A stretch of 64,000 nucleotides of DNA. Origin: Minisyncoccota bacterium (GTDB taxonomy: Bacteria > Patescibacteriota > Minisyncoccia > Phycocordibacterales > UBA9973). Both the position numbers and the translations under genes were made by a program. Below are positions 36,141-50,063 of this stretch, in pieces (the stretch's first letter is position 1; each line of letters starts with the position of its first letter). Location of the stretch: positions 4,996-68,995 of the forward strand of contig JBAYHR010000004.1 in NCBI GenBank assembly GCA_041666045.1, read 5' to 3'. The notes beneath the pieces were generated by a model that was not told the DNA's origin, searched no databases, and saw only the letters and a program-made list of their open reading frames with translations.

Positions 36141-36169
36141 TCACAAATTCCTTTCTGCTTCAATAAACA
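36141..36169 (-). repeat. 29-bp direct repeat TCACAAATTCCTTTCTGCTTCAATAAACA (copy at RT 3' end)
   Basis: Identical to 39904-39932 at the prfB 3' end; encodes FIEAERNL plus TGA on the minus strand. Confidence 0.85.
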
Positions 36170-37163
36170 TACTAAGTTTATACCCATTCCCATGCCCCAG
36201 CATCCCCAAATACGAAGCAATGGTATTAGGTTTTTGATTATTCTTTAAATTCCTAAACATCCTTTTCTTTGTGCTATTTCGTAATACTCTGTGTTTAGGA
36301 AAATGTACCCAGCCTAAGAAATCCACACCTGAATAAATAGTTTTAATAAAAACTTTATCTGGATGCATAGTTAATTTTAATTCATTTTCTAAAAACTCTT
36401 TCATTTGTTCTAAAATATTTTCCAAATAATTTTTGTCTTGCGATAATATAACAAAATCATCAGCGTATCTTATATAATATTTCACTTTCAATTTATGTTT
36501 TACAAATTGATCAAATTCATTCATATAGATATTTACAAGGAGTTGAGAAGTTAAATTACCCAAAGGCAAACCTTTTGAAAGTGACACAAACTCTGCCATG
36601 GCAGAGTTTGTGTCACTTGTATAAAAACTATCTATAATATTATCTAAAAGCCAAATGATATCTTTATCTTTTATAAATTTTACTAAAATACTTTTTAAAA
36701 TATTATGATCAATACTCGCAAAGAATTTTTTAATATCACATTTTAAAACCCAACAGGTTTTTGAATTATTTTTACTAACTTTGCGAAAATAATCCCTAAA
36801 CTTATTCATTCCCTTATGAGTACCTTTCCATTTACGGCAAGAATATGAATCACTGATAAATTTTGAATCAAAGAAAAAATACATTTTTTGATAAAGAGCG
36901 TGATGCAATATCCTGTCACAAACAATGGCTTTATGTATATCACGAGGTTTTGGATCAGAAATTTTAAAAGCATAATATCCTGAATGTTTATAATTTTTTG
37001 TTTTTAAATCATTGTGAAGTTTTAATAAATTTTCCATTAAATTTCTTTGCCAAATTTGAACATCTTTTTTATTTGATTTTTCGCTCCTAAAATTTTTCCA
37101 CGCCAAAAGTAAATTTTCCAAAGATATGATATCATTGTAACTATGAATAAAAGTTTTTATCAT
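36141..37163 (-). CDS. Diversity-generating retroelement reverse transcriptase
   Basis: RT motifs including YIRYADDFVIL (YxDD) and the DGR-specific LGxxxSQ (LPLGNLTSQ); 340 aa; the last 8 codons are shared with prfB. Confidence 0.85.
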   Translation of the reverse strand: MIKTFIHSYNDIISLENLLLAWKNFRSEKSNKKDVQIWQRNLMENLLKLHNDLKTKNYKHSGYYAFKISDPKPRDIHKAIVCDRILHHALYQKMYFFFDSKFISDSYSCRKWKGTHKGMNKFRDYFRKVSKNNSKTCWVLKCDIKKFFASIDHNILKSILVKFIKDKDIIWLLDNIIDSFYTSDTNSAMAEFVSLSKGLPLGNLTSQLLVNIYMNEFDQFVKHKLKVKYYIRYADDFVILSQDKNYLENILEQMKEFLENELKLTMHPDKVFIKTIYSGVDFLGWVHFPKHRVLRNSTKKRMFRNLKNNQKPNTIASYLGMLGHGNGYKLSMFIEAERNL

Positions 37164-37176
37164 TCTTCTGATATTA

Positions 37177-37187
37177 CCCCCCCCCCC
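37177..37187. repeat. C11 homopolymer in the 31-bp divergent RT/avd intergenic region
   Basis: Direct reading; striking in a ~30% GC genome. Confidence 0.8.
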
Positions 37188-37194
37188 GACGATT

Positions 37195-37545
37195 TTGCCA
37201 GTTATGCAAAGGGTAAAAACTGTGTATATCCTATGGTTTGAATATTATAAAAAATTAGAAAAAACACACAAATACACGCTTGGTCAAAAAATTGATAATT
37301 TATTTATAGAAATAATAGAAGCCGTATCAATTGCCACATTTTTAGATAAAACAGAAAAACAACCCTGGATAAGACTTGCAATACGGAAATTAGATACAAT
37401 AAAAATACTTTTAATGATACTTTGGGAAACAAAATCTCTTGATAATAAAAAATATATAAACATTTCCAAACCAATAGATGAAATAGGCAGAATGCTCGGT
37501 GGTTGGAATGGACAGCTTACAAAACAAAACTCTCCCAATAAATAG
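37195..37545 (+). CDS. avd: DGR accessory variability determinant (Avd, four-helix-bundle protein)
   Basis: 116 aa basic protein; C-terminal IDEIGRMLGGWNGQL matches the Avd/TIGR02436 EVGRILGSWI region; helical pattern. Confidence 0.7.
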   Translation: MPVMQRVKTVYILWFEYYKKLEKTHKYTLGQKIDNLFIEIIEAVSIATFLDKTEKQPWIRLAIRKLDTIKILLMILWETKSLDNKKYINISKPIDEIGRMLGGWNGQLTKQNSPNK

Positions 37546-37563
37546 GGAGAGAAATGAAAAGAG

Positions 37564-37696
37564 TTGCGAGAGAGAAAAACAAAGCGATTGTTGCCACTCC
37601 ACTTGTTGTCTAAATTCCCATTATTGTTGTTAAGCCACAACCCATCGTTATTGCATTCCACATTGAAAATCCTAGGATTGCCATCGCGATCAGTAT
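37564..37696 (-). repeat. DGR template repeat (TR)
   Basis: 133-bp direct repeat of the VR; differs from the VR only at positions that are A on the sense (minus) strand. Confidence 0.85.
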
Positions 37697-38005
37697 ATAT
37701 AAACTATCATCTATGCCACCACCCTTAGAATGCTCTCCGGGTTGAATTTTATTTAGTATCTAAAATACTTCAATAGTTTATACCAAGTAATTTCATTTTT
37801 TAATGAAGTGTCTGCACACATTACACTATTTTTAATCTTAATTAAAAATATTCTGAATGCATGGATACTGGATTCGGTAGTGAAAAACCTTAATCTTTCA
37901 CATATTCACCTACTACCATTTTTATTTTATCATACTTTTTTTAAAAAAATTCAAAGTTCAAAAATCAAAGAGTCAAAAGAATTCTAAATTGCAAAATCCT
38001 AAGTT

Positions 38006-39859
38006 CTAATTCTTGCGAGAGAGAAAAACAAAGCGATAGTTGCCACTCCACCTGTCGCCTAAATTCCCATCATAGCTGTCAAGCCACAACCCATCGCCAT
38101 AGCATTCCACACCGAAAATCCTAGGACCGCCATCGCGATCAGCAATAGAATCCATCGCAATTCTTAACCATTCTCCCATAAGTTGATCTTTATAATTAAG
38201 TCTAAGCTCTGGACCAACTTGTGGTGGACATAATTCTAAACCAAGTTTTTTTGCTTTATTGTATATTTCTTTTAAAGTAGCTCCATTTGGAAAACCGAGT
38301 TGTTCTATTGAAAATGAAACTAGATTAATTTTTTCTTTTTGTTTTAATGGCTCTATTTTATTTAACATATCTTGAGCATAAGAATATATTTTCATTCCTT
38401 GTACTTTTATTTCTTTTGTATATTCTTCTGATGTTTTAGTTGTAAGTTCTATATTTTTTCTAAATATTTTCTTTTCAGGAAATGATTCATATAAATATTC
38501 AATATTTTTTGGAATCTTTTTTGCAATTTCCGGATTCCATTCTCCTATATATGCTTTAGTATTTTCGTTTATTTCATCTTTATTATATGCAATCTGTTCT
38601 GAATTGCATTCAAAAATAATTGATGCATCTTCTTTGATATTTCTTTGTTTTCTTAATTCTAAAATTCGTGGATCTTTTTCATAACCAAAACTTGAAATAG
38701 AATCATTCATCTCATATAGAAAAACTAAATCTTGTTTGGTAAATTGTTCATTCTTTTCTTGTTTTTTAACAAGCTCAGTCACTTTTTTCATATCATTTGA
38801 TTTTTTATCAAATTTTTCTCCACCCGGCAAAGAATGATATTTTTCTTGTGCAGTATCTATCAAAACAGGTTCTAATTCTTGTCGGTGATTCACTCCACGC
38901 ACTTCTGCTATTTCATCTCCTTGCATTCTAATTGCAATTCTGGGCTCAGAATAATTACCAGCTGTTCCTTTAGTGTAATAAACATAAAAATCACCACCTT
39001 GCAGATGACTTGGCGCGCTTCCTTCGGCTGTACACCAGCCTGTGCCTTTGCCACGAAGTGCATTTTCTAAAATATGATAATCAGAACCTTGATCATATTT
39101 TACCCATTCACCTTTTAATGATTCACGATTTAATGTTCCAGCTGTTTCTATTTGAGCAAAAGTGTAAAGTTTTACAAAATCTTTCTTTTCTATCATCTTT
39201 TCTAAATCAGCTCTTTTTTGTTTTTGATCTTCCCCTGTGAATTCTTGGCTACCGATACCAGTAGTTAGCATTCTGTAAACAAAACCAAGCGCTTCGGAAT
39301 TTATTTCTGGAAATGGAGCAATTGTATAATCTGTGCGTTTACTATACTCTCCTTTTTCTTTATTAAGAGTTCCCATTTTAGACAAATTGCGAACAATAAA
39401 ATACCGAAACCAAGTCGGATATTCTGCATCGTTTTGTTTTAAGTAATCAAGCCAGCCATTTAATGATTTTACTTGAATTTCTCTTTTTTCTTTAGCAAGA
39501 TTTTCATAACCTTTTATTAGCTCATCATTATCTTCCAACTTCATTATTTCATTGCTTCTGCCTTGTTCTATTGCAATTCTTTTTTCTGATTCATAAAGAC
39601 CAACAGCGATTTTTGTAAGTGTATCTTCATCTTTAGTGTCTATGGCTAAATCTTTTATTATTTTATTTTTTAGTAATTCCCAACCTCGCTCGTCTTCCAC
39701 TATTTTATCAAGACGATCTAAATACGCTTCTATTCTTTCATCACGAGAATGCGGAGCAAATTTTCTTTCTGGATCTTTTTTAGCTTTTTCTACTGCTCGA
39801 ACAACCGGTTTTGAACCCGGTAAATCTGAATATTTTTGTTCAAGAAAATTCTTTTTCAT
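38006..39859 (-). CDS. DGR target protein with C-terminal variable (CLec/FGE-like) region
   Basis: 617 aa, no signal peptide; C-terminus ...GVECYGDGLWLDSYDGNLGDRWSGNYRFVFLSRKN is encoded by the VR. Confidence 0.8.
   Translation of the reverse strand: MKKNFLEQKYSDLPGSKPVVRAVEKAKKDPERKFAPHSRDERIEAYLDRLDKIVEDERGWELLKNKIIKDLAIDTKDEDTLTKIAVGLYESEKRIAIEQGRSNEIMKLEDNDELIKGYENLAKEKREIQVKSLNGWLDYLKQNDAEYPTWFRYFIVRNLSKMGTLNKEKGEYSKRTDYTIAPFPEINSEALGFVYRMLTTGIGSQEFTGEDQKQKRADLEKMIEKKDFVKLYTFAQIETAGTLNRESLKGEWVKYDQGSDYHILENALRGKGTGWCTAEGSAPSHLQGGDFYVYYTKGTAGNYSEPRIAIRMQGDEIAEVRGVNHRQELEPVLIDTAQEKYHSLPGGEKFDKKSNDMKKVTELVKKQEKNEQFTKQDLVFLYEMNDSISSFGYEKDPRILELRKQRNIKEDASIIFECNSEQIAYNKDEINENTKAYIGEWNPEIAKKIPKNIEYLYESFPEKKIFRKNIELTTKTSEEYTKEIKVQGMKIYSYAQDMLNKIEPLKQKEKINLVSFSIEQLGFPNGATLKEIYNKAKKLGLELCPPQVGPELRLNYKDQLMGEWLRIAMDSIADRDGGPRIFGVECYGDGLWLDSYDGNLGDRWSGNYRFVFLSRKN
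38013..38145 (-). repeat. DGR variable repeat (VR) at the 3' end of the target gene
   Basis: About 17 substitutions relative to the TR, all at TR adenines (13 A->G, 4 A->T in coding sense); the 3'-terminal ~30 nt are identical (IMH-like). Confidence 0.85.
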
Positions 39860-43237: not shown

Positions 43238-43275
43238 AAAGTGATTTTTATAACTCTTGCCAAAGTTTGATTTAG

Positions 43276-43310
43276 CGAAATCATGTCGCGCAACCGTCCT
43301 TATAGCGCGA
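43276..43310. repeat. GC-rich repeat, family A copy 1 (TTTGATTTAGCGAAATCATGTCGCGCAACCGTCC)
   Basis: Near-identical copy 71 bp downstream and a third copy at 20641. Confidence 0.6.
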
Positions 43311-43346
43311 CCTGTTCGTCAACATCTAGTCCAGTTGTCTGATTTT

Positions 43347-43381
43347 GCGAAATCATGCCGCGCAATCGTCCATCAAAGCGT
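43347..43381. repeat. GC-rich repeat, family A copy 2
   Basis: About 90% identical to copy 1. Confidence 0.6.
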
Positions 43382-43397
43382 GGCCCTTGCTAAGCAA

Positions 43398-43426
43398 GGA
43401 CGGTCCTTGCTATCCAAATGATTTTT
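43398..43426. repeat. 29-bp direct repeat TGCTAAGCAAGGACGGTCCTTGCTATCCA (candidate att, copy 1)
   Basis: Exact second copy at 48410-48438; contains the 19-bp palindrome AGCAAGGACGGTCCTTGCT. Confidence 0.7.
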
Positions 43427-43545: not shown

Positions 43546-44019
43546 ATGCTATATTGTAAACTACCTAAAAGTATGACTATAGAAGATATAAAACCAGACG
43601 AAGAACCAACATCTCCACAAGAAACAGGAGAAGTAAAATCCCCCGAAGGTAAAGCCCCTTGGTCTTCTTTAAACTCAATAATTCAAGAGCAAGATATAAA
43701 AAGTGTAAAAGATTTTAAATTAGTTAGTAAAATGTTGCTTGGAGAAATTAATCGTTTAATAAAAGAGGTTGGGCAGTTAAACTCTCTTACAGAAGATTAT
43801 AACAAAAAAAATACTGAATTAGCAGTCTTAAAAGAACGACTAGGGGCTTTCAATGTTAGATCATTTTTATTTTCCATAGGAGGTTTATTGGGTGGTGTCG
43901 CTTTTATACCAAATTTATCAACTAGTCAAGAAATTGGAGTAGTTTTGTTGTGTGTTATATGTTTTATGATAGCTATGTTAAACCCCGATTGGTTAAATAA
44001 TTTGTTTGGTAAAAAATAA
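43546..44019 (+). CDS. Hypothetical protein with C-terminal TM segment
   Basis: ORF only. Confidence 0.35.
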   Translation: MLYCKLPKSMTIEDIKPDEEPTSPQETGEVKSPEGKAPWSSLNSIIQEQDIKSVKDFKLVSKMLLGEINRLIKEVGQLNSLTEDYNKKNTELAVLKERLGAFNVRSFLFSIGGLLGGVAFIPNLSTSQEIGVVLLCVICFMIAMLNPDWLNNLFGKK

Positions 44020-44386
44020 TTTTATGAAATTAAAAATAACAAGAATTATAGATGTTGGAAATAAAGAAAAGGAACGAATTGTCCTTAAGGCTTTAGATGA
44101 TGTTAATGTTGGTAGCTATGTAATTTTTAAATCTAAAAAAATTGGAGAAACAATGGTATCTAATATAATCCCTTACACTTTTTGGTTTAAAGACCAACAG
44201 GTTAAAAAGAATGATTTGGTTGTAGTTTATACAAAAACAGGAATACCTAAATCTATTTTGAATGCTACTGGAAATACTTCACACTTTTTTTATTGGAATC
44301 AAAATAATTTTATATTAAATAACGATAATGATGCTATTGTTTTATTGAATGTTAATGAATGGAATTTAAAATTCGTAAAAGAATAA
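44006..44386 (+). CDS. Hypothetical protein
   Basis: ORF only. Confidence 0.35.
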   Translation: MVKNNFMKLKITRIIDVGNKEKERIVLKALDDVNVGSYVIFKSKKIGETMVSNIIPYTFWFKDQQVKKNDLVVVYTKTGIPKSILNATGNTSHFFYWNQNNFILNNDNDAIVLLNVNEWNLKFVKE

Positions 44387-44475: not shown

Positions 44476-47400
44476 TTAAATTTCAAGTTTAATGTTACCA
44501 ACAATTTTTTCTTTACCTTCGTCGTCTTCTATCCATTCTGAATATCCAATCCTGAAAAAATTCCACCCTGCGCTTTCTAAAACTTGCTGTCTTTGTATAT
44601 CACTTTCCACATAAATACCATAAGCTTCGTCTATATTATCTTTAAAATGAGTAGGACCATCACATTCAATTGCTAGCTGATTACCATTCTTTAAATTTGT
44701 AATAACAAAGTCAATTTTAAAACCACAACTTTCTACTTGATTTTGAATTGTATACCCCCTACCAAGTTTCTTTTTTAATAAATAATAAAATTCTTCTTCA
44801 AAGAAACTATCAAATTTTTTAAGGGCTAATTTAGAAGCTGAAACCTCTCCGTTATCTCTAACATATTCCAAGTATTTCTTTATCCATATACCATTAGGAA
44901 TTTTCTCAATAGGTAAACTTAAAATACAATGAACTTGTAATCTTGCTCGTGAAAATGCAACGTTCACTCTACCAGCATTTATGTCAGCTTTTATATCTCC
45001 AGTTTCCCCAGTTAATGGAATATACTGCCTTTTTTGAGAAGGGTCTCTAATTACAAAAGAGTAGATTATAATATCTTTTTCGTCTCCCTGTATACCTTCA
45101 ATCACCGCAATTTTTAGCTTTTCGCTTTCTTTAATCCTATTATCTTCAAAAACCTTTCTAATTAGTTCTGCTTGGTCATTAAAAAAAGTTAATACCGCAA
45201 ATGTTTTTCCCTCGTATTTCGGATCATCAACCATTTCTTGATATAGTTCAAAAGCTTTTATAGCTTCAGCTCTATTAGTATTATCACTTATTTCTCCTAC
45301 ACCATTATTTTGAATGTTATGAAGAACCATTATTCGGTTTGTATCTTGGTAGGTTAGATATTTATTATTTAAAGCTATCAAACGTTTACCTTTTGGTTCA
45401 TAAAAGTATTTATTACTAAAACCTATCAACTCCATTGGAGAACGATAATGATATTGGAGTATTTTAGGTATACCAAATCTTGTTTTTGCAATATCTAAAA
45501 CTGATTGAACGGCTGTTCCAGTTGGTTTTATTTGTAAACTTTCAGGAACTTTGAAACGACTAGCAAGTTGGTCAAAGGCATTGTTTGATTTAAACATTAC
45601 GGTGCTATCCCTCATTTGTTCAGGGTCACCTACAAATATAGATTTCTTGGCTCTATACATTGAAGGAATTGTGTAAGCGATATTACATTGAGAAGCTTCG
45701 TCAAACACTACATAATCAAATAAATTTGCCACCAAAGGAATAAGCCGACTAGCGTCGTCTAAATCCATAATCCAAACAGGAACTACATTTAATATGGTCT
45801 CAAAGTTATTTGGGTCGCTCTTTAGTTTATCAAAAGTTTTAAATGCTTTTTTTGATTTTTTAAATGCTTTTTGTAATTCTTGAAGTTTTCTGTATATCTT
45901 AACCTGTGAGACATTTCTCTTGATATTATCTTCTATAATTGCCGACAAATACTGTGAAATAATTTCTTTTCTTGTAATATAATTTTTGCTGGTTACTTCC
46001 TTTTTGAGTTTAGTAATTTCATCAACTAAATTTTTTTGGTCGTGATTTAGCGTAATACGGTCTGATAATTTTACTACTAGTTCAGTAGCTGTTATAGATT
46101 TTTCTTTCAAGAATTTAAATAATTCGGAAAGGTTCTCCCTTGATAAATCTAAATTATCTTCTATTTCTTTAAGAGAAATTTCTAGCTTTTCGTTTTCAAT
46201 GGTTGCTTCCCAATAACTACAAAATCGAAGTAGCTGTTCTAGTTCTTGTGTAGCAATATGGCGAGATATGTCTTTCCCAAGAATAGAATTTATTTCTTCA
46301 TAGATTTCTTTTGGTAATTTGGTTAAATGTGATTTAAGTCGGATCTTTCGGCTCAAATTATTTATGTATCTTCCTAGATTAAATGACCTATCAAAGCCAG
46401 TTTTTTTAACGTCAAGAAGAACGGTTTTAACCAAATCTGAAAAAGCAAAATCAGAAAATAAACCTCTATCAAGATTGTATTTTCTTGAAATCGCTTCCAA
46501 GCTCTCAATTAAGGTATTGTTTTCTGATATTCTTTTTTGTGTTTTTATATATGAACTATGTAATTCTTCAGTAAGGTTTGTTAAAATCTTTTCTTCATTC
46601 AATTCAGGAAGTTCTTGCAAAAAATCATACTCACACTTTTTTTCTTCAAGTTCATACACATTTCTTTCAAGTGCGATAGACCTGTCTCTTTTACTTAAAC
46701 TTTCGTCGGTGGTTTGAGTAAATTCTCCTAAATTTGAATTGTCTTTTATGTTATTTTTTTGAGCGCCGTAAGTATCCAAAGAAGCTAATTGAGACGATAT
46801 TGTGTCACTTTCTTCGTCATTTAATTGCTGAAATTTTACGCTAGGTATGTAGCCAAAAAGTAAAGGCACTTCCAGCGTTTTCAATTTGTCTTTTACAACA
46901 CGCAGGGCTTGTGGCTTTTGACTTACAAATAATACTTTATTCTTATTAACTGCTAAATGTGAAATTATATTGGAAATAGTTTCCGATTTTCCTGTTCCGG
47001 GCGGTCCTTGAATTATGGAAGCTTTATTGCCCAAAAGAGAGGTTGTTGCTCTTTGGAATTTATCGTATGGGAATGGAAAATATAAAGCTTTTTCTTCGCA
47101 AACATCAGAATTGATATTTAAACCTTCTTCTGAAAACCAGCCAGATAGAGAAGTATTTTCTAAAAGTTCTTCTTTTTCTCTTGAAAGTTTTGTTAGGTCT
47201 TCAACTAAAAAGAAATTTGCTCTTGGTGCTAATGTTAATCTCAATTCTTCAAGTGTGAAAGATTTTTCATTGAAAGTTGCTTCGGTTAGTTTCAGCTTTG
47301 CTTTTAAAATATGCCATAAATCTAAAAAAGCTTTTTCGGAAGTAATGGGAATAGAGAACGCTTCCTCGCTTTCCATTTTTACATAATCATTTAAAAATTC

Positions 47401-48009
47401 GTAAACTAAATCTTCTTTTTTATATGTTCTAAAGATTTCATAGAGTGGGGGTAAATTTAAACGAACTTCAAAATCAACTGGTGTAATTGAGTATCTGTCT
47501 GTATTATTTTTATCCTTTTCTTTATCAACCCTCACTGGTAGTGAAAATAAATAAAATTGTTTTAACACTAATTTTGCTTCAGCATTTTCAATAAGCTTTA
47601 GTTGTATATTTTCTTCAACTTCTTCCTCGTTTTCTATTATTGGTTCTTCTAAAACTTCAAAGTCAAACTTACCGAAGCGAAGAATTGTTTCTTTCGTGAA
47701 GGAGTCATTTTTTGCCTTATTGTATATTTCGTCTATCTGCAATGCGAGAGCTTTTTCTGCTTTATACTGCTCTGCAATTTCTTCAGTAATATCCTTTGGG
47801 TCGGTATTATAATAACAATCCAAGTTAACAATTTCACTCAAATTGCCGTCAGTATCTCCATTGATAAGATTTGTTAAAGAAAAGTATTTTTGCGGTAATT
47901 TAATGTCTAGTGATGTCCCCCTATTAAAACCTGTCGGCCTAGTTAAACTTAAATATCCCAAACAGTATTTAATATAAGAATTTAAGGAAAATTCCATAAG
48001 TAAACTCAA
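44476..48009 (-). CDS. Large SF1 helicase (AAA_11/AAA_12, Upf1/DNA2-like) fused to a C-terminal DUF559/Vsr-like endonuclease domain
   Basis: Walker A IIQGPPGTGKSETI, Walker B VVFDEASQ, C-terminal ...FKIDFVITNLKNGNQLAIECDGPTHF restriction-endonuclease-like domain; 1177 aa. Confidence 0.7.
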   Translation of the reverse strand: MSLLMEFSLNSYIKYCLGYLSLTRPTGFNRGTSLDIKLPQKYFSLTNLINGDTDGNLSEIVNLDCYYNTDPKDITEEIAEQYKAEKALALQIDEIYNKAKNDSFTKETILRFGKFDFEVLEEPIIENEEEVEENIQLKLIENAEAKLVLKQFYLFSLPVRVDKEKDKNNTDRYSITPVDFEVRLNLPPLYEIFRTYKKEDLVYEFLNDYVKMESEEAFSIPITSEKAFLDLWHILKAKLKLTEATFNEKSFTLEELRLTLAPRANFFLVEDLTKLSREKEELLENTSLSGWFSEEGLNINSDVCEEKALYFPFPYDKFQRATTSLLGNKASIIQGPPGTGKSETISNIISHLAVNKNKVLFVSQKPQALRVVKDKLKTLEVPLLFGYIPSVKFQQLNDEESDTISSQLASLDTYGAQKNNIKDNSNLGEFTQTTDESLSKRDRSIALERNVYELEEKKCEYDFLQELPELNEEKILTNLTEELHSSYIKTQKRISENNTLIESLEAISRKYNLDRGLFSDFAFSDLVKTVLLDVKKTGFDRSFNLGRYINNLSRKIRLKSHLTKLPKEIYEEINSILGKDISRHIATQELEQLLRFCSYWEATIENEKLEISLKEIEDNLDLSRENLSELFKFLKEKSITATELVVKLSDRITLNHDQKNLVDEITKLKKEVTSKNYITRKEIISQYLSAIIEDNIKRNVSQVKIYRKLQELQKAFKKSKKAFKTFDKLKSDPNNFETILNVVPVWIMDLDDASRLIPLVANLFDYVVFDEASQCNIAYTIPSMYRAKKSIFVGDPEQMRDSTVMFKSNNAFDQLASRFKVPESLQIKPTGTAVQSVLDIAKTRFGIPKILQYHYRSPMELIGFSNKYFYEPKGKRLIALNNKYLTYQDTNRIMVLHNIQNNGVGEISDNTNRAEAIKAFELYQEMVDDPKYEGKTFAVLTFFNDQAELIRKVFEDNRIKESEKLKIAVIEGIQGDEKDIIIYSFVIRDPSQKRQYIPLTGETGDIKADINAGRVNVAFSRARLQVHCILSLPIEKIPNGIWIKKYLEYVRDNGEVSASKLALKKFDSFFEEEFYYLLKKKLGRGYTIQNQVESCGFKIDFVITNLKNGNQLAIECDGPTHFKDNIDEAYGIYVESDIQRQQVLESAGWNFFRIGYSEWIEDDEGKEKIVGNIKLEI

Positions 48010-48054: not shown

Positions 48055-48387
48055 TTATGCAACATTAAACTTCTCAAAAACCTGAAATACGTCCACTGTT
48101 TTCTTCCTAATATCAATCTCGTCGTCATATACGATAAGCATTTCAAGCGAAGAATGTCGGCTAAACTTTCTTACGTCTCTGACATCAAGTTTTTTGAGCA
48201 AGGCAGTAATGAAGAAGTGGCGAAATCCGTGAACTCCTTTTTCAATCCCAACTTCTTTACACAAAGAACCTAGCTGGCGTTTTATTGTCATTGTGGTTAT
48301 CCTTTCACTTTTTCTATTTCCCATACTTTTAAACAAAGCTCCACTTCCGACTTTATTAGTTTTTATGTATTCTCTCAAAACATTCAC
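48055..48387 (-). pseudogene. Truncated tyrosine recombinase/integrase (C-terminal catalytic fragment only)
   Basis: HGFRHFFITALL (box II HxxR) and SRHSSLEMLIVY (catalytic Tyr region); the usual N-terminal ~250 aa are absent. Confidence 0.6.
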
Positions 48388-48409
48388 AGTTTGCGGTGCT
48401 AAATAAATA

Positions 48410-48438
48410 TGCTAAGCAAGGACGGTCCTTGCTATCCA
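48410..48438. repeat. 29-bp direct repeat (candidate att, copy 2)
   Basis: Exact match to 43398-43426. Confidence 0.7.
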
Positions 48439-48512
48439 GAGATTGAACCGGAGACCTCGTTTCCGCCAGAGGCGGACAAGCTTACCAAGAAATGCGGCAT
48501 TTATCCCGTAAG
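48439..48512 (-). other. Partial duplicate of the tRNA-Thr(GGT) 3' half (anticodon loop to T-arm) with a 19-nt insertion after the anticodon loop
   Basis: TTCTTGGTAAG[CTTGTCCGCCTCTGGCGGA]AACGAGGTC matches the tRNA segment TTCTTGGTAAGAACGAGGTC; there is not enough 5' sequence for a complete tRNA. Confidence 0.5.
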
Positions 48513-48585
48513 AGCCGACAATCAGATTTGCACTGATGACCTCGTTCTTACCAAGAACGTGCTCTACTACCTGAGCTATGTCGGC
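48513..48585 (-). tRNA. tRNA-Thr (anticodon GGT) with atypical T-loop (TGCAAAT)
   Basis: Manual fold: acceptor GCCGACA/TGTCGGC, D-arm GCTC-AGGTAGT-AGAGC, anticodon stem CGTTC/GAACG with loop TTGGTAA, T-stem ATCAG/CTGAT; positions 55 and 57 are non-canonical. Confidence 0.7.
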
Positions 48586-49797: not shown

Positions 49798-49871
49798 GCG
49801 ACCGACCGGATTTGAACCGGCAACCTCCCGCGTGACAGGCGGGTGCTCTAACCAGTTGAGCTACGATCGCA
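49798..49871 (-). tRNA. tRNA-Asp (anticodon GTC)
   Basis: Manual fold: acceptor GCGATCG/CGGTCGC, anticodon stem CCCGC/GCGGG with loop CTGTCAC, T-arm GCCGG-TTCAAAT-CCGGT. Confidence 0.8.
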
Positions 49872-50063
49872 TTATTAATACATAAACAGATATTTTATTT
49901 TACCACACAATCGTTCCGCCTAGGCGGGTGCTCGCTATAGTCTGGTCTGAGTTGAGCTACGATCGCATTATTAATACATAAACAGATATTTTATTTTACC
50001 ACACAATCGTTCCGCCTAGGCGGGTGCTCGCTATAGTCTGGTCTGAGTTGAGCTACGATCGCA
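49872..50063 (-). repeat. Tandem duplication, 2 x 96 bp, each unit carrying a tRNA-Asp 5'-fragment (acceptor plus D-arm) fused to unrelated sequence
   Basis: Units 49872-49967 and 49968-50063 are identical; each ends with GCGATCGTAGCTCAAC (the tRNA-Asp 5' end) but lacks a foldable 3' half. Confidence 0.8.

What the first reader, a model, noticed from the sequence alone, without database searches (positions are those of the whole stretch)
44476..48009. 1177-aa SF1 helicase fused to a DUF559/Vsr-like endonuclease domain: candidate defence gene carried on the island
It combines a Upf1/DNA2-like AAA_11/AAA_12 helicase core (IIQGPPGTGKSETI; VVFDEASQ) with a long coiled-coil-rich middle region and a C-terminal restriction-endonuclease-fold domain (...IDFVITNLKNGNQLAIECDGPTHF). 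The region before the Walker A motif (~330 aa) has no recognisable catalytic motifs. Such helicase-nuclease giants recur in defence islands but are functionally uncharacterised. Its location inside a putative mobile-element remnant supports an anti-phage or anti-plasmid role.
Basis: partly seen in the sequence, partly recalled or inferred. Interest (0 to 1): 0.55.

Follow-up and report, generated by a model that had tools for sequence, protein, structure and literature searches.

The report
Patescibacterial helicase–nuclease on decayed island
This is an intact 1173-residue gene from an ultra-small (Patescibacteria/CPR) bacterium that fuses a Upf1-type helicase to a Vsr-type DNA-cutting domain; it sits in the remains of an integrated mobile element and is most likely an untested, CPR-specific relative of known single-gene anti-phage helicase–nucleases, not a new kind of system.

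Summary
The ORF is real, but it starts at the ATG at 47997, giving 1173 aa rather than 1177. It carries a split AAA_11 domain, an AAA_12 domain and an MTES_1575 (Vsr-like) nuclease domain, and all helicase and nuclease motifs are invariant across homologs. The roughly 310-aa N-terminal domain occurs only in this family (56 clusters among 1.84 billion representatives). It has no PDB fold match and only weak profile similarity to DUF4011. The "coiled-coil" middle is a 350-aa all-helical insert inside RecA1.

The gene lies in a 5.0-kb segment bounded by perfect 29-nt direct repeats, next to tRNA-Thr(GGT), together with a truncated tyrosine integrase. Full-length integrases sit in the same position in two relatives.

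Across 51 related loci the context is not conserved. Serine or tyrosine recombinases, restriction-modification genes, XRE regulators and Cas4-like nucleases (DUF2779, PDDEXK_1) recur.

The nearest named families are PDC-S37, Hhe and ProA. The protein scores far below their thresholds, so it is a distinct CPR clade of that class. A defence role is plausible (confidence about 0.55) but untested, and a DNA-repair role is not excluded. Novelty: new variant of a known kind. Interest: about 0.4.

The parts
44476..47997 (-). Complete CDS of the helicase-nuclease (1173 aa plus stop codon). The real start is the ATG at 47997, not the TTG at 48009.
   Evidence: P0001 is 100% identical over 1173 aa; all homologs start at MxFSLN.
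47068..47997 (-). N-terminal family-specific alpha/beta domain (aa 1-310). It is a possible very remote relative of DUF4011 and the presumed sensor or regulatory module.
46822..47067 (-). First part of RecA1 (aa 311-392), with Walker A GPPGTGKSET (331-340) and motif Ia VSQKxQAL.
   Evidence: invariant columns G331-T340 and F357-L365.
45778..46821 (-). All-helical insert (aa 393-740) that splits RecA1 between Walker A and motif II. No conserved HEPN-type Rx4-6H motif.
   Evidence: AF2 secondary structure shows long helices 423-455, 477-505, 579-616 and 637-669 at pLDDT 85-92. The invariant residues in the insert are G534, D536, N546, R550, P562, R676 and Y683, with no invariant His.
44848..45777 (-). 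Rest of RecA1 plus RecA2 (aa 741-1050). Motifs present: II DEASQ (766-770), III VGDPEQM, IV YHYRS, V EGIQGDEKD, VI GRVNVAFSRAR.
   Evidence: all invariant. The closest folds by Foldseek are Senataxin, Aquarius, Upf1, IGHMBP2 and Dna2, and the PDB profile search agrees.
44479..44826 (-). C-terminal Vsr-like PD-(D/E)xK endonuclease domain (aa 1058-1173; MTES_1575/DUF559/RAP clan). Invariant residues: D1096, E1111, D1113, H1117, D1133, R1136, Q1137.
   Evidence: Pfam MTES_1575 67 bits against a cut-off of 38.2. Invariant columns.
48055..48387 (-). Truncated tyrosine integrase gene (C-terminal 110 aa only). Its reading frame is open up to a TAG inside the right direct repeat.
   Evidence: Pfam Phage_integrase profile positions 74-166 of 172. 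PHROG integrase families also match. Relatives L001 and L010 have full-length integrases of 300 and 298 aa at the same position. DNA homology to L001 stops at 48405.
48410..48438 (.). Right copy of the 29-nt direct repeat TGCTAAGCAAGGACGGTCCTTGCTATCCA, which contains a 7-bp hairpin.
43388..43416 (.). Left copy of the 29-nt direct repeat; together with the right copy it delimits a 5,022-bp unit.
48513..48585 (-). tRNA-Thr(GGT), 74 nt outside the right repeat. The spacer carries a partial copy of the 3' half of this tRNA.
   Evidence: ARAGORN. Rfam tRNA 61 bits. The partial-copy alignment scores 34 against shuffles of 21.3 +/- 4.1, so it is only suggestive.
43546..44386 (+). Two small overlapping ORFs inside the repeat-bounded segment: 157 aa with a hydrophobic C-terminus (43546..44019) and 126 aa (44006..44386). 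They are convergent with the helicase gene and their function is unknown. They are not shared with any related locus.
   Evidence: no family hits. DNA homology to relatives stops at the helicase stop codon. They cluster with nothing.

Best explanation
The gene encodes an intact single-polypeptide nucleic-acid surveillance enzyme. It belongs to a Patescibacteria-specific clade of the 'DUF4011-like N-domain, Upf1-like SF1B helicase with a large helical insert, Vsr-like nuclease' class, which also contains the anti-phage proteins Hhe, ProA and PADLOC candidate PDC-S37. It arrived here as cargo of a small tRNA-adjacent integrative element that has since lost the front of its integrase and is now fixed in place.

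What is shown: the domain architecture, the intactness and conservation of every ATPase, helicase and nuclease motif, the element boundaries, and the variable, recombinase-rich and restriction-modification-rich context of relatives.

What is inferred: in the resting state the N-terminal domain and the helical insert hold the enzyme inactive. A feature of infection then licenses loading; candidates are free 5' single-stranded tails, replication or recombination intermediates, or a phage protein, as the T7 DNA-metabolism 'trigger' genes suggest for E. coli hhe. The SF1B motor translocates 5'->3' using ATP, and the C-terminal Vsr-like PD-(D/E)xK domain nicks or cuts the tracked nucleic acid. This destroys the invader, or the infected cell's DNA in an abortive-infection mode. 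In about a quarter of relatives an adjacent Cas4-like nuclease (DUF2779 or PDDEXK_1) probably assists in degrading ends, and an XRE repressor controls expression. The window copy has neither partner.
For: Architecture and active-site conservation. Upf1-like SF1B core: PDB profile search and Foldseek. The defence libraries rank PDC-S37 (2.5e-68), Hhe (9e-31) and ProA (1.5e-67) first. Proteins that are true PDC-S37/Hhe members share the layout of an N-domain followed by Walker A about 300 residues in, a long insert, AAA_12 and MTES_1575. The element is defined by 29-nt direct repeats, a truncated integrase and a tRNA. An integrase-then-helicase pair with a full-length integrase is seen in L001 and L010. 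Homologs at 81-92% identity sit at different chromosomal sites, such as murE/tRNA-Glu and tRNA-Ala. Across 51 loci a large serine recombinase occurs in 12, a recombinase of either type occurs in 9 of the 25 loci with at least 8 kb of flank, DUF2779 in 7, PDDEXK_1 in 4 (3 of them immediately downstream), XRE HTH genes in 6, and restriction-modification genes in several. One neighbour is an AriA/OLD/GajA-like ATPase. No close homolog is found in phage or plasmid collections. E. coli hhe acts as an anti-phage system with triggers and counter-defences (PMC11482910).
Against: No experiment exists for this clade. Scores are far below the curated cut-offs (ProA 228 against 1500, Hhe 140 against 2000; PDC-S37 229 bits against 1150-1300 for real members). 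The family is unusually conserved for an arms-race gene: at least 45% identity over the full length with near-constant size across CPR classes. In the one pair where a comparison was possible, helicase divergence (46%) resembles that of housekeeping genes (38-52%). Some loci have purely housekeeping neighbours, including recA, recX and a RecD-like helicase. The two cargo ORFs beside it give no defence hits. No empty-site genome was recovered.
Confidence: 0.55

Rival explanations
1. It is a cellular DNA-end-processing or repair helicase-nuclease of Patescibacteria, a functional stand-in for Dna2, AddAB or RecBCD in reduced genomes. On this reading its presence on islands is incidental.
For: Conservation is strong over the full length across CPR classes, with constant length. 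Divergence is similar to that of FtsE, FtsX and PrfB in the L013 pair. A Cas4/RecB-like PD-(D/E)xK partner recurs immediately downstream, giving a two-nuclease-plus-motor logic like AddAB. One locus lies near recA, recX and a RecD-like helicase. Dna2 is among the structural neighbours.
Against: There is no conserved chromosomal context in 51 loci. Recombinases, restriction-modification genes and XRE regulators are frequent neighbours. Homologs at 81-92% identity sit at different sites, bounded by tRNAs and integrases. NCBIfam RecD2 scores 18.5 bits against a cut-off of 500. Repair helicase-nucleases are normally not carried next to integrases inside repeat-bounded segments.
Confidence: 0.2
2. 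It serves the mobile element rather than the host, for example by competing with other elements, acting as an addiction or stabilisation function, or processing the element's own DNA during transfer.
For: It sits immediately downstream of a tyrosine integrase, on the same strand, in 3 loci. A large serine recombinase lies within 8 kb in 12 of 51 loci.
Against: Most loci (about two thirds of those with at least 8 kb of flank) have no recombinase nearby, and some are in plain housekeeping contexts. The gene remains intact and identical in three samples, although the local integrase is dead. There are no relaxase, replication-initiator or transfer genes in the 5-kb segment.
Confidence: 0.15
3. 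The target is RNA rather than DNA: a Upf1-like RNA helicase coupled to a RAP-like endoribonuclease that degrades invader or host transcripts. This is a variant of the mechanism, not of the biological role.
For: The closest solved helicases are RNA or RNA/DNA helicases: Senataxin, Upf1, IGHMBP2, Aquarius and ZNFX1. All 21 members hit the RAP domain family, which overlaps the nuclease domain. The helicase core also matches the Mokosh proteins MkoA and MkoC.
Against: MTES_1575 and DUF559 are Vsr-type DNA endonuclease folds and score higher than RAP. Partners, where present, are Cas4-like DNA nucleases. SF1B Upf1-like motors also act on DNA; Dna2 and IGHMBP2 are examples from established knowledge.
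Confidence: 0.1

Closest known systems
PADLOC candidate PDC-S37 (a single-gene putative defence protein of the form DUF4011, AAA_11, AAA_12, MTES_1575, with or without DUF3320)
   Same: It is the best defence-library hit (2.5e-68). The order of modules is the same: an N-domain of about 300 aa, Walker A, a long insert, motif II, AAA_12 and an MTES_1575 nuclease.
   Different: Only residues 565-1162 align. The score is 229 bits, against 1150-1300 bits for true members (L023, L043, L046). The insert is about half as long (about 350 aa against about 750). No Pfam DUF4011 or DUF3320 is detected. The protein has 1173 aa, against 1440-1940.
Hhe (the single-gene anti-phage system of E. coli; NCBIfam NF042953, 'DUF4011 domain-containing anti-phage protein Hhe')
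   Same: A helicase core plus a Vsr-like nuclease in one polypeptide. The C-terminal 430 residues align. hhe is a working defence with phage triggers and counter-defences.
   Different: The score is 140 bits against a curated cut-off of 2000. No DUF4011 hit is found. No conserved HEPN-type motif occurs in the insert; that Hhe contains HEPN rests on my own recollection of Gao et al. 2020 and on the MTES_1575 architecture in PMC3710099. The protein is about 700 residues shorter than the Hhe model.
ProA (NCBIfam NF058533, 'anti-phage protein ProA')
   Same: It is the top NCBIfam hit. Residues 423-1162 align to profile positions 970-1695 of 1903.
   Different: The score is 228 bits against a cut-off of 1500. 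About 970 N-terminal profile positions are unmatched. I could find no paper describing ProA in the library.
Upf1-like SF1B helicases (Senataxin/Sen1, Upf1, IGHMBP2, Aquarius, ZNFX1, Dna2)
   Same: The RecA1/RecA2 core and motifs I-VI are shared, and an accessory domain is inserted in RecA1. These are the best sequence and fold matches among solved structures. A 5'->3' polarity is inferred from this family.
   Different: Identity is 11-14%. None of them has the N-domain, the 350-aa helical insert or a C-terminal Vsr-like nuclease. The Dna2 nuclease is N-terminal and of a different PD-(D/E)xK type.
Mokosh MkoA/MkoC and other helicase-nuclease defences (Nhi, Hachiman HamAB)
   Same: The logic of coupling a motor to a nuclease is the same. 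MkoA and MkoC match the helicase core at about 1e-20. Hachiman illustrates the model in which a helicase senses and a nuclease executes (PMC12278908, listed).
   Different: The nuclease types differ (PLD in Mokosh, Cap4-like in HamA) and so do the helicase families (HamB is SF2). There is no homology outside the core. The comparison with Nhi rests on my own knowledge and was not tested here.

Membership tests
Hhe (NCBIfam NF042953 / PADLOC PDLC02194) | Whole-protein score above the curated equivalog cut-off (2000 bits) | tested here: not met
   140 bits, with only residues 734-1161 aligned. PADLOC Hhe scores 104 bits, against 534-604 bits for true relatives.
Hhe / PDC-S37 | N-terminal DUF4011 domain (PF13195) | tested here: not met
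   There is no DUF4011 hit at E<=0.1 for the window protein, and it is not among the families matched by 21 members at E<=1. A profile-profile comparison gives only a weak, motif-level resemblance (hhalign P=4e-4, probability 35%), so remote homology is possible but unproven.
Hhe | HEPN domain with an Rx4-6H motif (from my recollection of the name, and from the architecture of MTES_1575 in PMC3710099) | tested here: not met
   No HEPN family appears among the Pfam hits. No invariant His or Rx4-6H motif occurs in the insert of 21-50 aligned homologs.
PDC-S37 (PADLOC PDLC05009) | Near full-length match to the 1550-position model | tested here: not met
   229 bits over model positions 738-1330 only. 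L023, L043 and L046 score 1157-1299 bits, and L046 covers positions 8-1540.
ProA (NCBIfam NF058533) | Score above the curated cut-off (1500 bits) | tested here: not met
   228 bits, profile positions 970-1695 of 1903.
Upf1-like SF1B helicase (AAA_11/AAA_12) | Pfam AAA_11 and AAA_12 above the gathering score, helicase motifs I-VI intact, and a Upf1-like fold | tested here: met
   AAA_11 65 bits and AAA_12 72 bits against cut-offs of 27. The motifs are invariant in 21 and 50 homologs. The best fold matches are Senataxin, Aquarius, Upf1, IGHMBP2 and Dna2.
Upf1-like SF1B helicase | ATP-dependent 5'->3' translocation or unwinding | not testable with these tools
   This needs biochemistry. It is inferred from family membership only.
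Vsr-like PD-(D/E)xK nuclease (MTES_1575 / DUF559) | Domain score above the gathering score, and conserved acidic and His catalytic residues | tested here: met
   MTES_1575 scores 67 bits against 38.2, and DUF559 23.7 against 20.6. D1096, E1111, D1113, H1117, D1133, R1136 and Q1137 are invariant.
Integrative genomic island (tRNA-associated) | Flanking direct repeats, an integrase and an adjacent tRNA | tested here: met
   Perfect 29-nt repeats 5,022 bp apart. An integrase fragment. tRNA-Thr 74 nt away. The integrase is truncated, so this is a remnant.
Integrative genomic island | An unoccupied site in a related genome | tested here: inconclusive
   No exact match to the repeat was found in JGI metagenome contigs. 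Relatives with 89-96% identical SppA share only the sppA gene at the DNA level.
   RecD2 scores 18.5 bits against a cut-off of 500. HelD is only a weak fold hit (rank 41). The context is not conserved in 51 loci.
Anti-phage defence system (functional class) | Protection against phage or plasmid on expression, abolished by mutations in Walker A or the nuclease residues | not testable with these tools
   No experimental data exist for this clade.

The most novel reading that the evidence does not exclude
The family is a Patescibacteria-specific innate immune effector that current defence-finding tools miss. It would use a previously undescribed N-terminal sensor fold, sometimes working as a three-gene module (XRE regulator, helicase-nuclease, Cas4-like DUF2779 or PDDEXK_1 nuclease). 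It could account for part of the apparent scarcity of defence systems in CPR genomes.
Probability: 0.35. Interest if true: 0.55.

Novelty: new variant of a known kind. Interest (0 to 1): 0.4.

Why it matters
Patescibacteria (CPR) make up a large share of bacterial diversity. Even so, very few defence systems have been identified in them, and surveys note that their low counts may reflect systems that present tools cannot detect (PMC12259885; PMC12366544). This family is widespread in CPR, with more than 900 clusters at 90% identity. It is compact and a single gene, so it should be easy to test in a heterologous host. It would add a CPR-specific branch, with a new N-terminal domain, to the poorly understood class of Hhe-like helicase-nuclease defences. 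If it proved instead to be a repair enzyme, it would fill a gap in CPR DNA-end processing. In either case it is an incremental advance and does not change the overall picture.

Tried and rejected
3. Literature searches for ProA, PDC-S37 and DUF3320 found no descriptive paper. Gao et al. 2020 is not in the library, so statements about the origin of Hhe rest on my own knowledge.
4. An exact search for the 29-nt repeat in JGI metagenome contigs found nothing. blastn-short against all fetched loci also found nothing.
5. The empty-site test through SppA relatives failed, because only the sppA gene itself is conserved at the DNA level.
6. A recent-transfer test, comparing helicase identity with housekeeping identity, was possible for only one pair (L013). 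It was uninformative: 46% against 38-52%.
7. A phage or plasmid origin is rejected. There are two weak hits in INPHARED, one 25% hit in IMG/VR, and only hits of at most 33% identity to DUF4011/DUF3320 proteins in PLSDB.
8. The idea that the two small ORFs inside the segment are partners of the helicase is rejected. They are absent from all relatives and match no family.
9. The idea that the 29-nt repeat overlaps the tRNA was considered. It does not: it lies 74 nt away. The spacer's resemblance to the tRNA 3' half is only about 3 sd above shuffles.
10. The promoter scan was uninformative: 25 sites were found against 22.9 expected.


Full report
**Observation.** The ORF at 44476..48009 on the minus strand is real. 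Its translation contains the quoted Walker A (IIQGPPGTGKSETI), motif II (VVFDEASQ) and nuclease (IDFVITNLKNGNQLAIECDGPTHF) strings. The TTG start given by the ORF lister is probably four codons too early. All homologs start at M(E/N)FSLN, and a database protein of 1173 aa is 100% identical (P0001). The CDS is therefore 44476..47997.

Pfam places a split AAA_11 domain at about 316-374 and 644-795, AAA_12 at 844-1023, and MTES_1575 at 1066-1162 (67 bits against a cut-off of 38.2). DUF559 and RAP hits overlap the nuclease domain. DUF4011 and DUF3320 are not detected in this protein or in 21 family members.

**Organism.** The window has about 30% G+C. It carries prfB, ftsEX, gatCA, htpX, lemA, secDF and sodA. 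The identical protein is annotated as coming from a Candidatus Paceibacterota MAG. The host is therefore a Patescibacteria (CPR) bacterium.

**Anatomy of the protein.** In alignments of 21 and 50 homologs, every SF1 motif is invariant:
- motif I, GPPGTGKSET (331-340)
- motif Ia, VSQKxQAL
- motif II, DEASQ (766-770)
- motif III, VGDxEQM
- motif IV, YHYRS
- motif V, EGIQGDEKD
- motif VI, GRVNVAFSRAR

The Vsr/DUF559-type residues D1096, E1111, D1113, H1117, D1133, R1136 and Q1137 are also invariant. Both enzymatic modules are thus predicted to be active.

A profile search of PDB sequences and a Foldseek search with the full-length AlphaFold model (pLDDT 74.9) both give Upf1-like SF1B helicases as nearest neighbours: Senataxin/Sen1, Aquarius, Upf1, IGHMBP2, ZNFX1 and Dna2. 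Nothing solved has the whole architecture.

The insert has no invariant histidine and no Rx4-6H motif, so it shows no sign of an active HEPN domain.

**The N-terminal domain.** Residues 1-310 are strongly conserved within the family (IKYCLGY, NGDxDG, KNDxFTK, FGxFxxE, PLFSLPV). A phmmer search of 1.84 billion cluster representatives finds only 56 matches. All are at the N-terminus of proteins of about 1150-1450 aa, or are fragments. The seven longer matches that I scanned with Pfam all have the same AAA_11/AAA_12/MTES_1575 architecture.

**Relation to named families.** The best matches are PADLOC PDC-S37 (229 bits, residues 565-1162), Hhe (104 bits), MkoA and MkoC (helicase core only), and NCBIfam ProA (228 bits against a cut-off of 1500) and Hhe (140 bits against 2000).

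I scanned true members recovered from other phyla (Methanosphaera L023, Microbacterium L043, Alkalihalobacillus L046). They score 1157-1299 bits on PDC-S37 and 534-604 bits on Hhe, and they carry Pfam DUF4011. They share the same module order, with Walker A about 300 residues after the start of the N-domain and a long insert before motif II. Their insert is about twice as long, however, and the proteins have 1440-1940 residues.

The window protein therefore belongs to the same broad class but fails every membership threshold. It is a distinct, compact clade.

**The family.** More than 900 clusters at 90% identity were retrieved, all full-length at 1150-1280 aa. Where a source names them, they come from Paceibacterota, Staskawicz-, Moranii-, Magasanik-, Buchanan- and Levybacteria. 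Identity to the window protein is 68-92% in a close clade and 44-52% for the rest. A few MAGs labelled Omnitrophota, Spirochaetia or Bdellovibrionales also carry it. At least one of these (L013) has CPR-like neighbours, so mis-binning is likely. No close homolog occurs in INPHARED phages, IMG/VR or PLSDB plasmids.

**The island.** A perfect 29-nt direct repeat (TGCTAAGCAAGGACGGTCCTTGCTATCCA) occurs at 43388-43416 and 48410-48438 and nowhere else in the window; none is expected by chance. The 5,022-bp unit contains the helicase-nuclease, two small unannotatable ORFs on the other strand, and a 110-aa ORF. That ORF is the C-terminal part of a tyrosine integrase (Pfam profile positions 74-166 of 172; PHROG integrase families). 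Its frame stays open up to a TAG inside the right repeat.

tRNA-Thr(GGT) lies 74 nt beyond the right repeat. The spacer resembles the 3' half of that tRNA, but only about 3 sd above shuffled controls.

DNA homology to the locus of the 92%-identical homolog (L001) runs from the helicase stop codon (44477) to 48405, which is exactly up to the repeat. In L001 it continues into a full-length 300-aa integrase. L010 has the same integrase-then-helicase pair.

The arrangement with the truncated integrase recurs in three independent assemblies. The element is therefore a genuine, decayed and now immobile integrative element.

**Neighbourhoods.** I compared 17 loci with full-length homologs and then 51 family loci after a metagenome scan. 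Nothing housekeeping is conserved next to the gene. The recurrent neighbours are:
- large serine recombinases, in 12 loci
- tyrosine integrases directly upstream, in 3 loci
- either type of recombinase, in 9 of the 25 loci with at least 8 kb of flank
- DUF2779 proteins, in 7 loci (5 immediately downstream on the same strand)
- Cas4-like PDDEXK_1 nucleases, in 4 loci (3 immediately downstream)
- XRE-type HTH genes, in 6 loci (5 nt upstream in two of them)
- restriction-modification genes, in L064, L066, L017 and L022
- an AriA/OLD/GajA-like ATPase, in L001

Homologs at 81-92% identity sit at different sites: after murE next to tRNA-Glu in L001 and L007, near tRNA-Ala in L010, and next to tRNA-Thr here. 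One lineage (P0043; L062 and L018) has only housekeeping neighbours, including recA, recX and a RecD-like helicase.

**Interpretation.** The combination of features fits a defence or anti-mobile-element effector of the Hhe/PDC-S37 kind:
- an intact motor and nuclease in one polypeptide
- kinship with anti-phage helicase-nucleases
- carriage by integrative elements
- variable location
- frequent company of restriction-modification genes, XRE regulators and Cas4-like nucleases

E. coli hhe is used as a functional anti-phage system. T7 DNA-metabolism genes behave as its triggers, and several phage genes act as counter-defences (PMC11482910; bioRxiv 10.1101/2024.04.14.589459).

By analogy I propose the following steps, all of them inferred. 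The enzyme is auto-inhibited in the resting state. It is licensed by replication or recombination intermediates or by a phage factor. It then translocates 5'->3' and cuts with the Vsr-like domain.

The main rival is a CPR DNA-end-processing enzyme. Support for it comes from the unusual conservation, from the Cas4/RecB-like partner, and from the one pair where helicase and housekeeping divergence are similar. I give defence 0.55, repair 0.2 and an element-selfish function 0.15. RNA rather than DNA as substrate is a variant of the mechanism (0.1).

**Novelty and verdict.** The sequence is already in public databases, annotated generically as an 'AAA domain-containing' or 'DUF559 domain-containing' protein. 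It belongs to a known class, so nothing here is categorically new. What is new is modest: a CPR-restricted, compact clade with a family-specific N-terminal domain that current defence HMMs assign to no family above their thresholds. The clade also recurs in a module with XRE regulators and DUF2779 or PDDEXK_1 nucleases. Because CPR genomes are reported to have few recognised defences, a cheap heterologous test would be worthwhile. Interest is 0.4, and the novelty class is new variant of a known kind.

Noticed in passing
window 36141-39859 (RT 36141..37163 -, bAvd 37195..37545 +, TR 37564-37693, VR 38013-38142, target gene 38006..39859 -): A complete diversity-generating retroelement lies between ftsE and prfB. 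The 130-nt template and variable repeats are 88% identical, and every mismatch falls at a template adenine. The target is a 617-aa protein whose C-terminal end is the variable region. The public gene calls carry Pfam RVT_1 and bAvd hits.
   Followed up: partly
window 49854-50063: A 96-nt tandem repeat (2.2 copies, 100% identical) duplicates the first 17 nt of tRNA-Asp(GTC) plus 79 nt upstream. Two assemblies of the same organism differ by exactly 96 nt in this spacer (L072 against L073), so the copy number appears to be polymorphic.
   Followed up: partly
window 43265-43416: Just outside and overlapping the left direct repeat there is a run of three related hairpins. Two are 35-nt repeats spaced 72 nt apart (43265-43299 and 43337-43371, 89% identical), and the third is the 29-nt repeat itself. 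There is no Rfam match. They could be terminators of sppA, recombinase-binding sites or a small RNA.
   Followed up: no
L083 1035-6299; also L007, L012, L060, L095, L064, L089, L094, L076: In a subset of relatives the helicase-nuclease forms an apparent operon with an XRE HTH gene 5 nt upstream, a DUF2779 or Cas4-like PDDEXK_1 nuclease 8-286 nt downstream, or both. The window copy lacks both partners. The two DUF2779 partners scanned had no PADLOC match.
   Followed up: partly
L069 1633-10389: In a relative with 89% identical SppA, the gene is followed by a different defence-like cluster: a Cas4-like PDDEXK_1 nuclease, a Schlafen AlbA_2/HATPase protein, type I restriction-modification genes HsdM and HsdR, and an HTH gene. 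The flank of sppA may therefore be a variable region in this lineage.
   Followed up: partly
L035 2227-4971, L041 386-3166 (also L026, L031, L045): A second, shorter (about 920 aa) family of AAA_11/AAA_12 helicases fused to DUF559 also occurs in Patescibacteria and other phyla. It lacks the long insert, and its core resembles the Mokosh proteins MkoA and MkoC (about 190 bits).
   Followed up: no
window 48439-48512: The 74-nt spacer between tRNA-Thr(GGT) and the right repeat contains TTCTTGGTAAG, then a 19-nt insert, then AACGAGGTC. This resembles the anticodon-to-T-arm part of the adjacent tRNA and may be a relic of an older attachment site. The statistical support is weak.
   Followed up: partly
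window 48513-48585: tRNA-Thr(GGT) was missed by the whole-window Rfam scan at gathering threshold, but it scores 61 bits when the region is searched alone and is called by ARAGORN. It has an unusual T-loop (UGCAAAU).
   Followed up: yes
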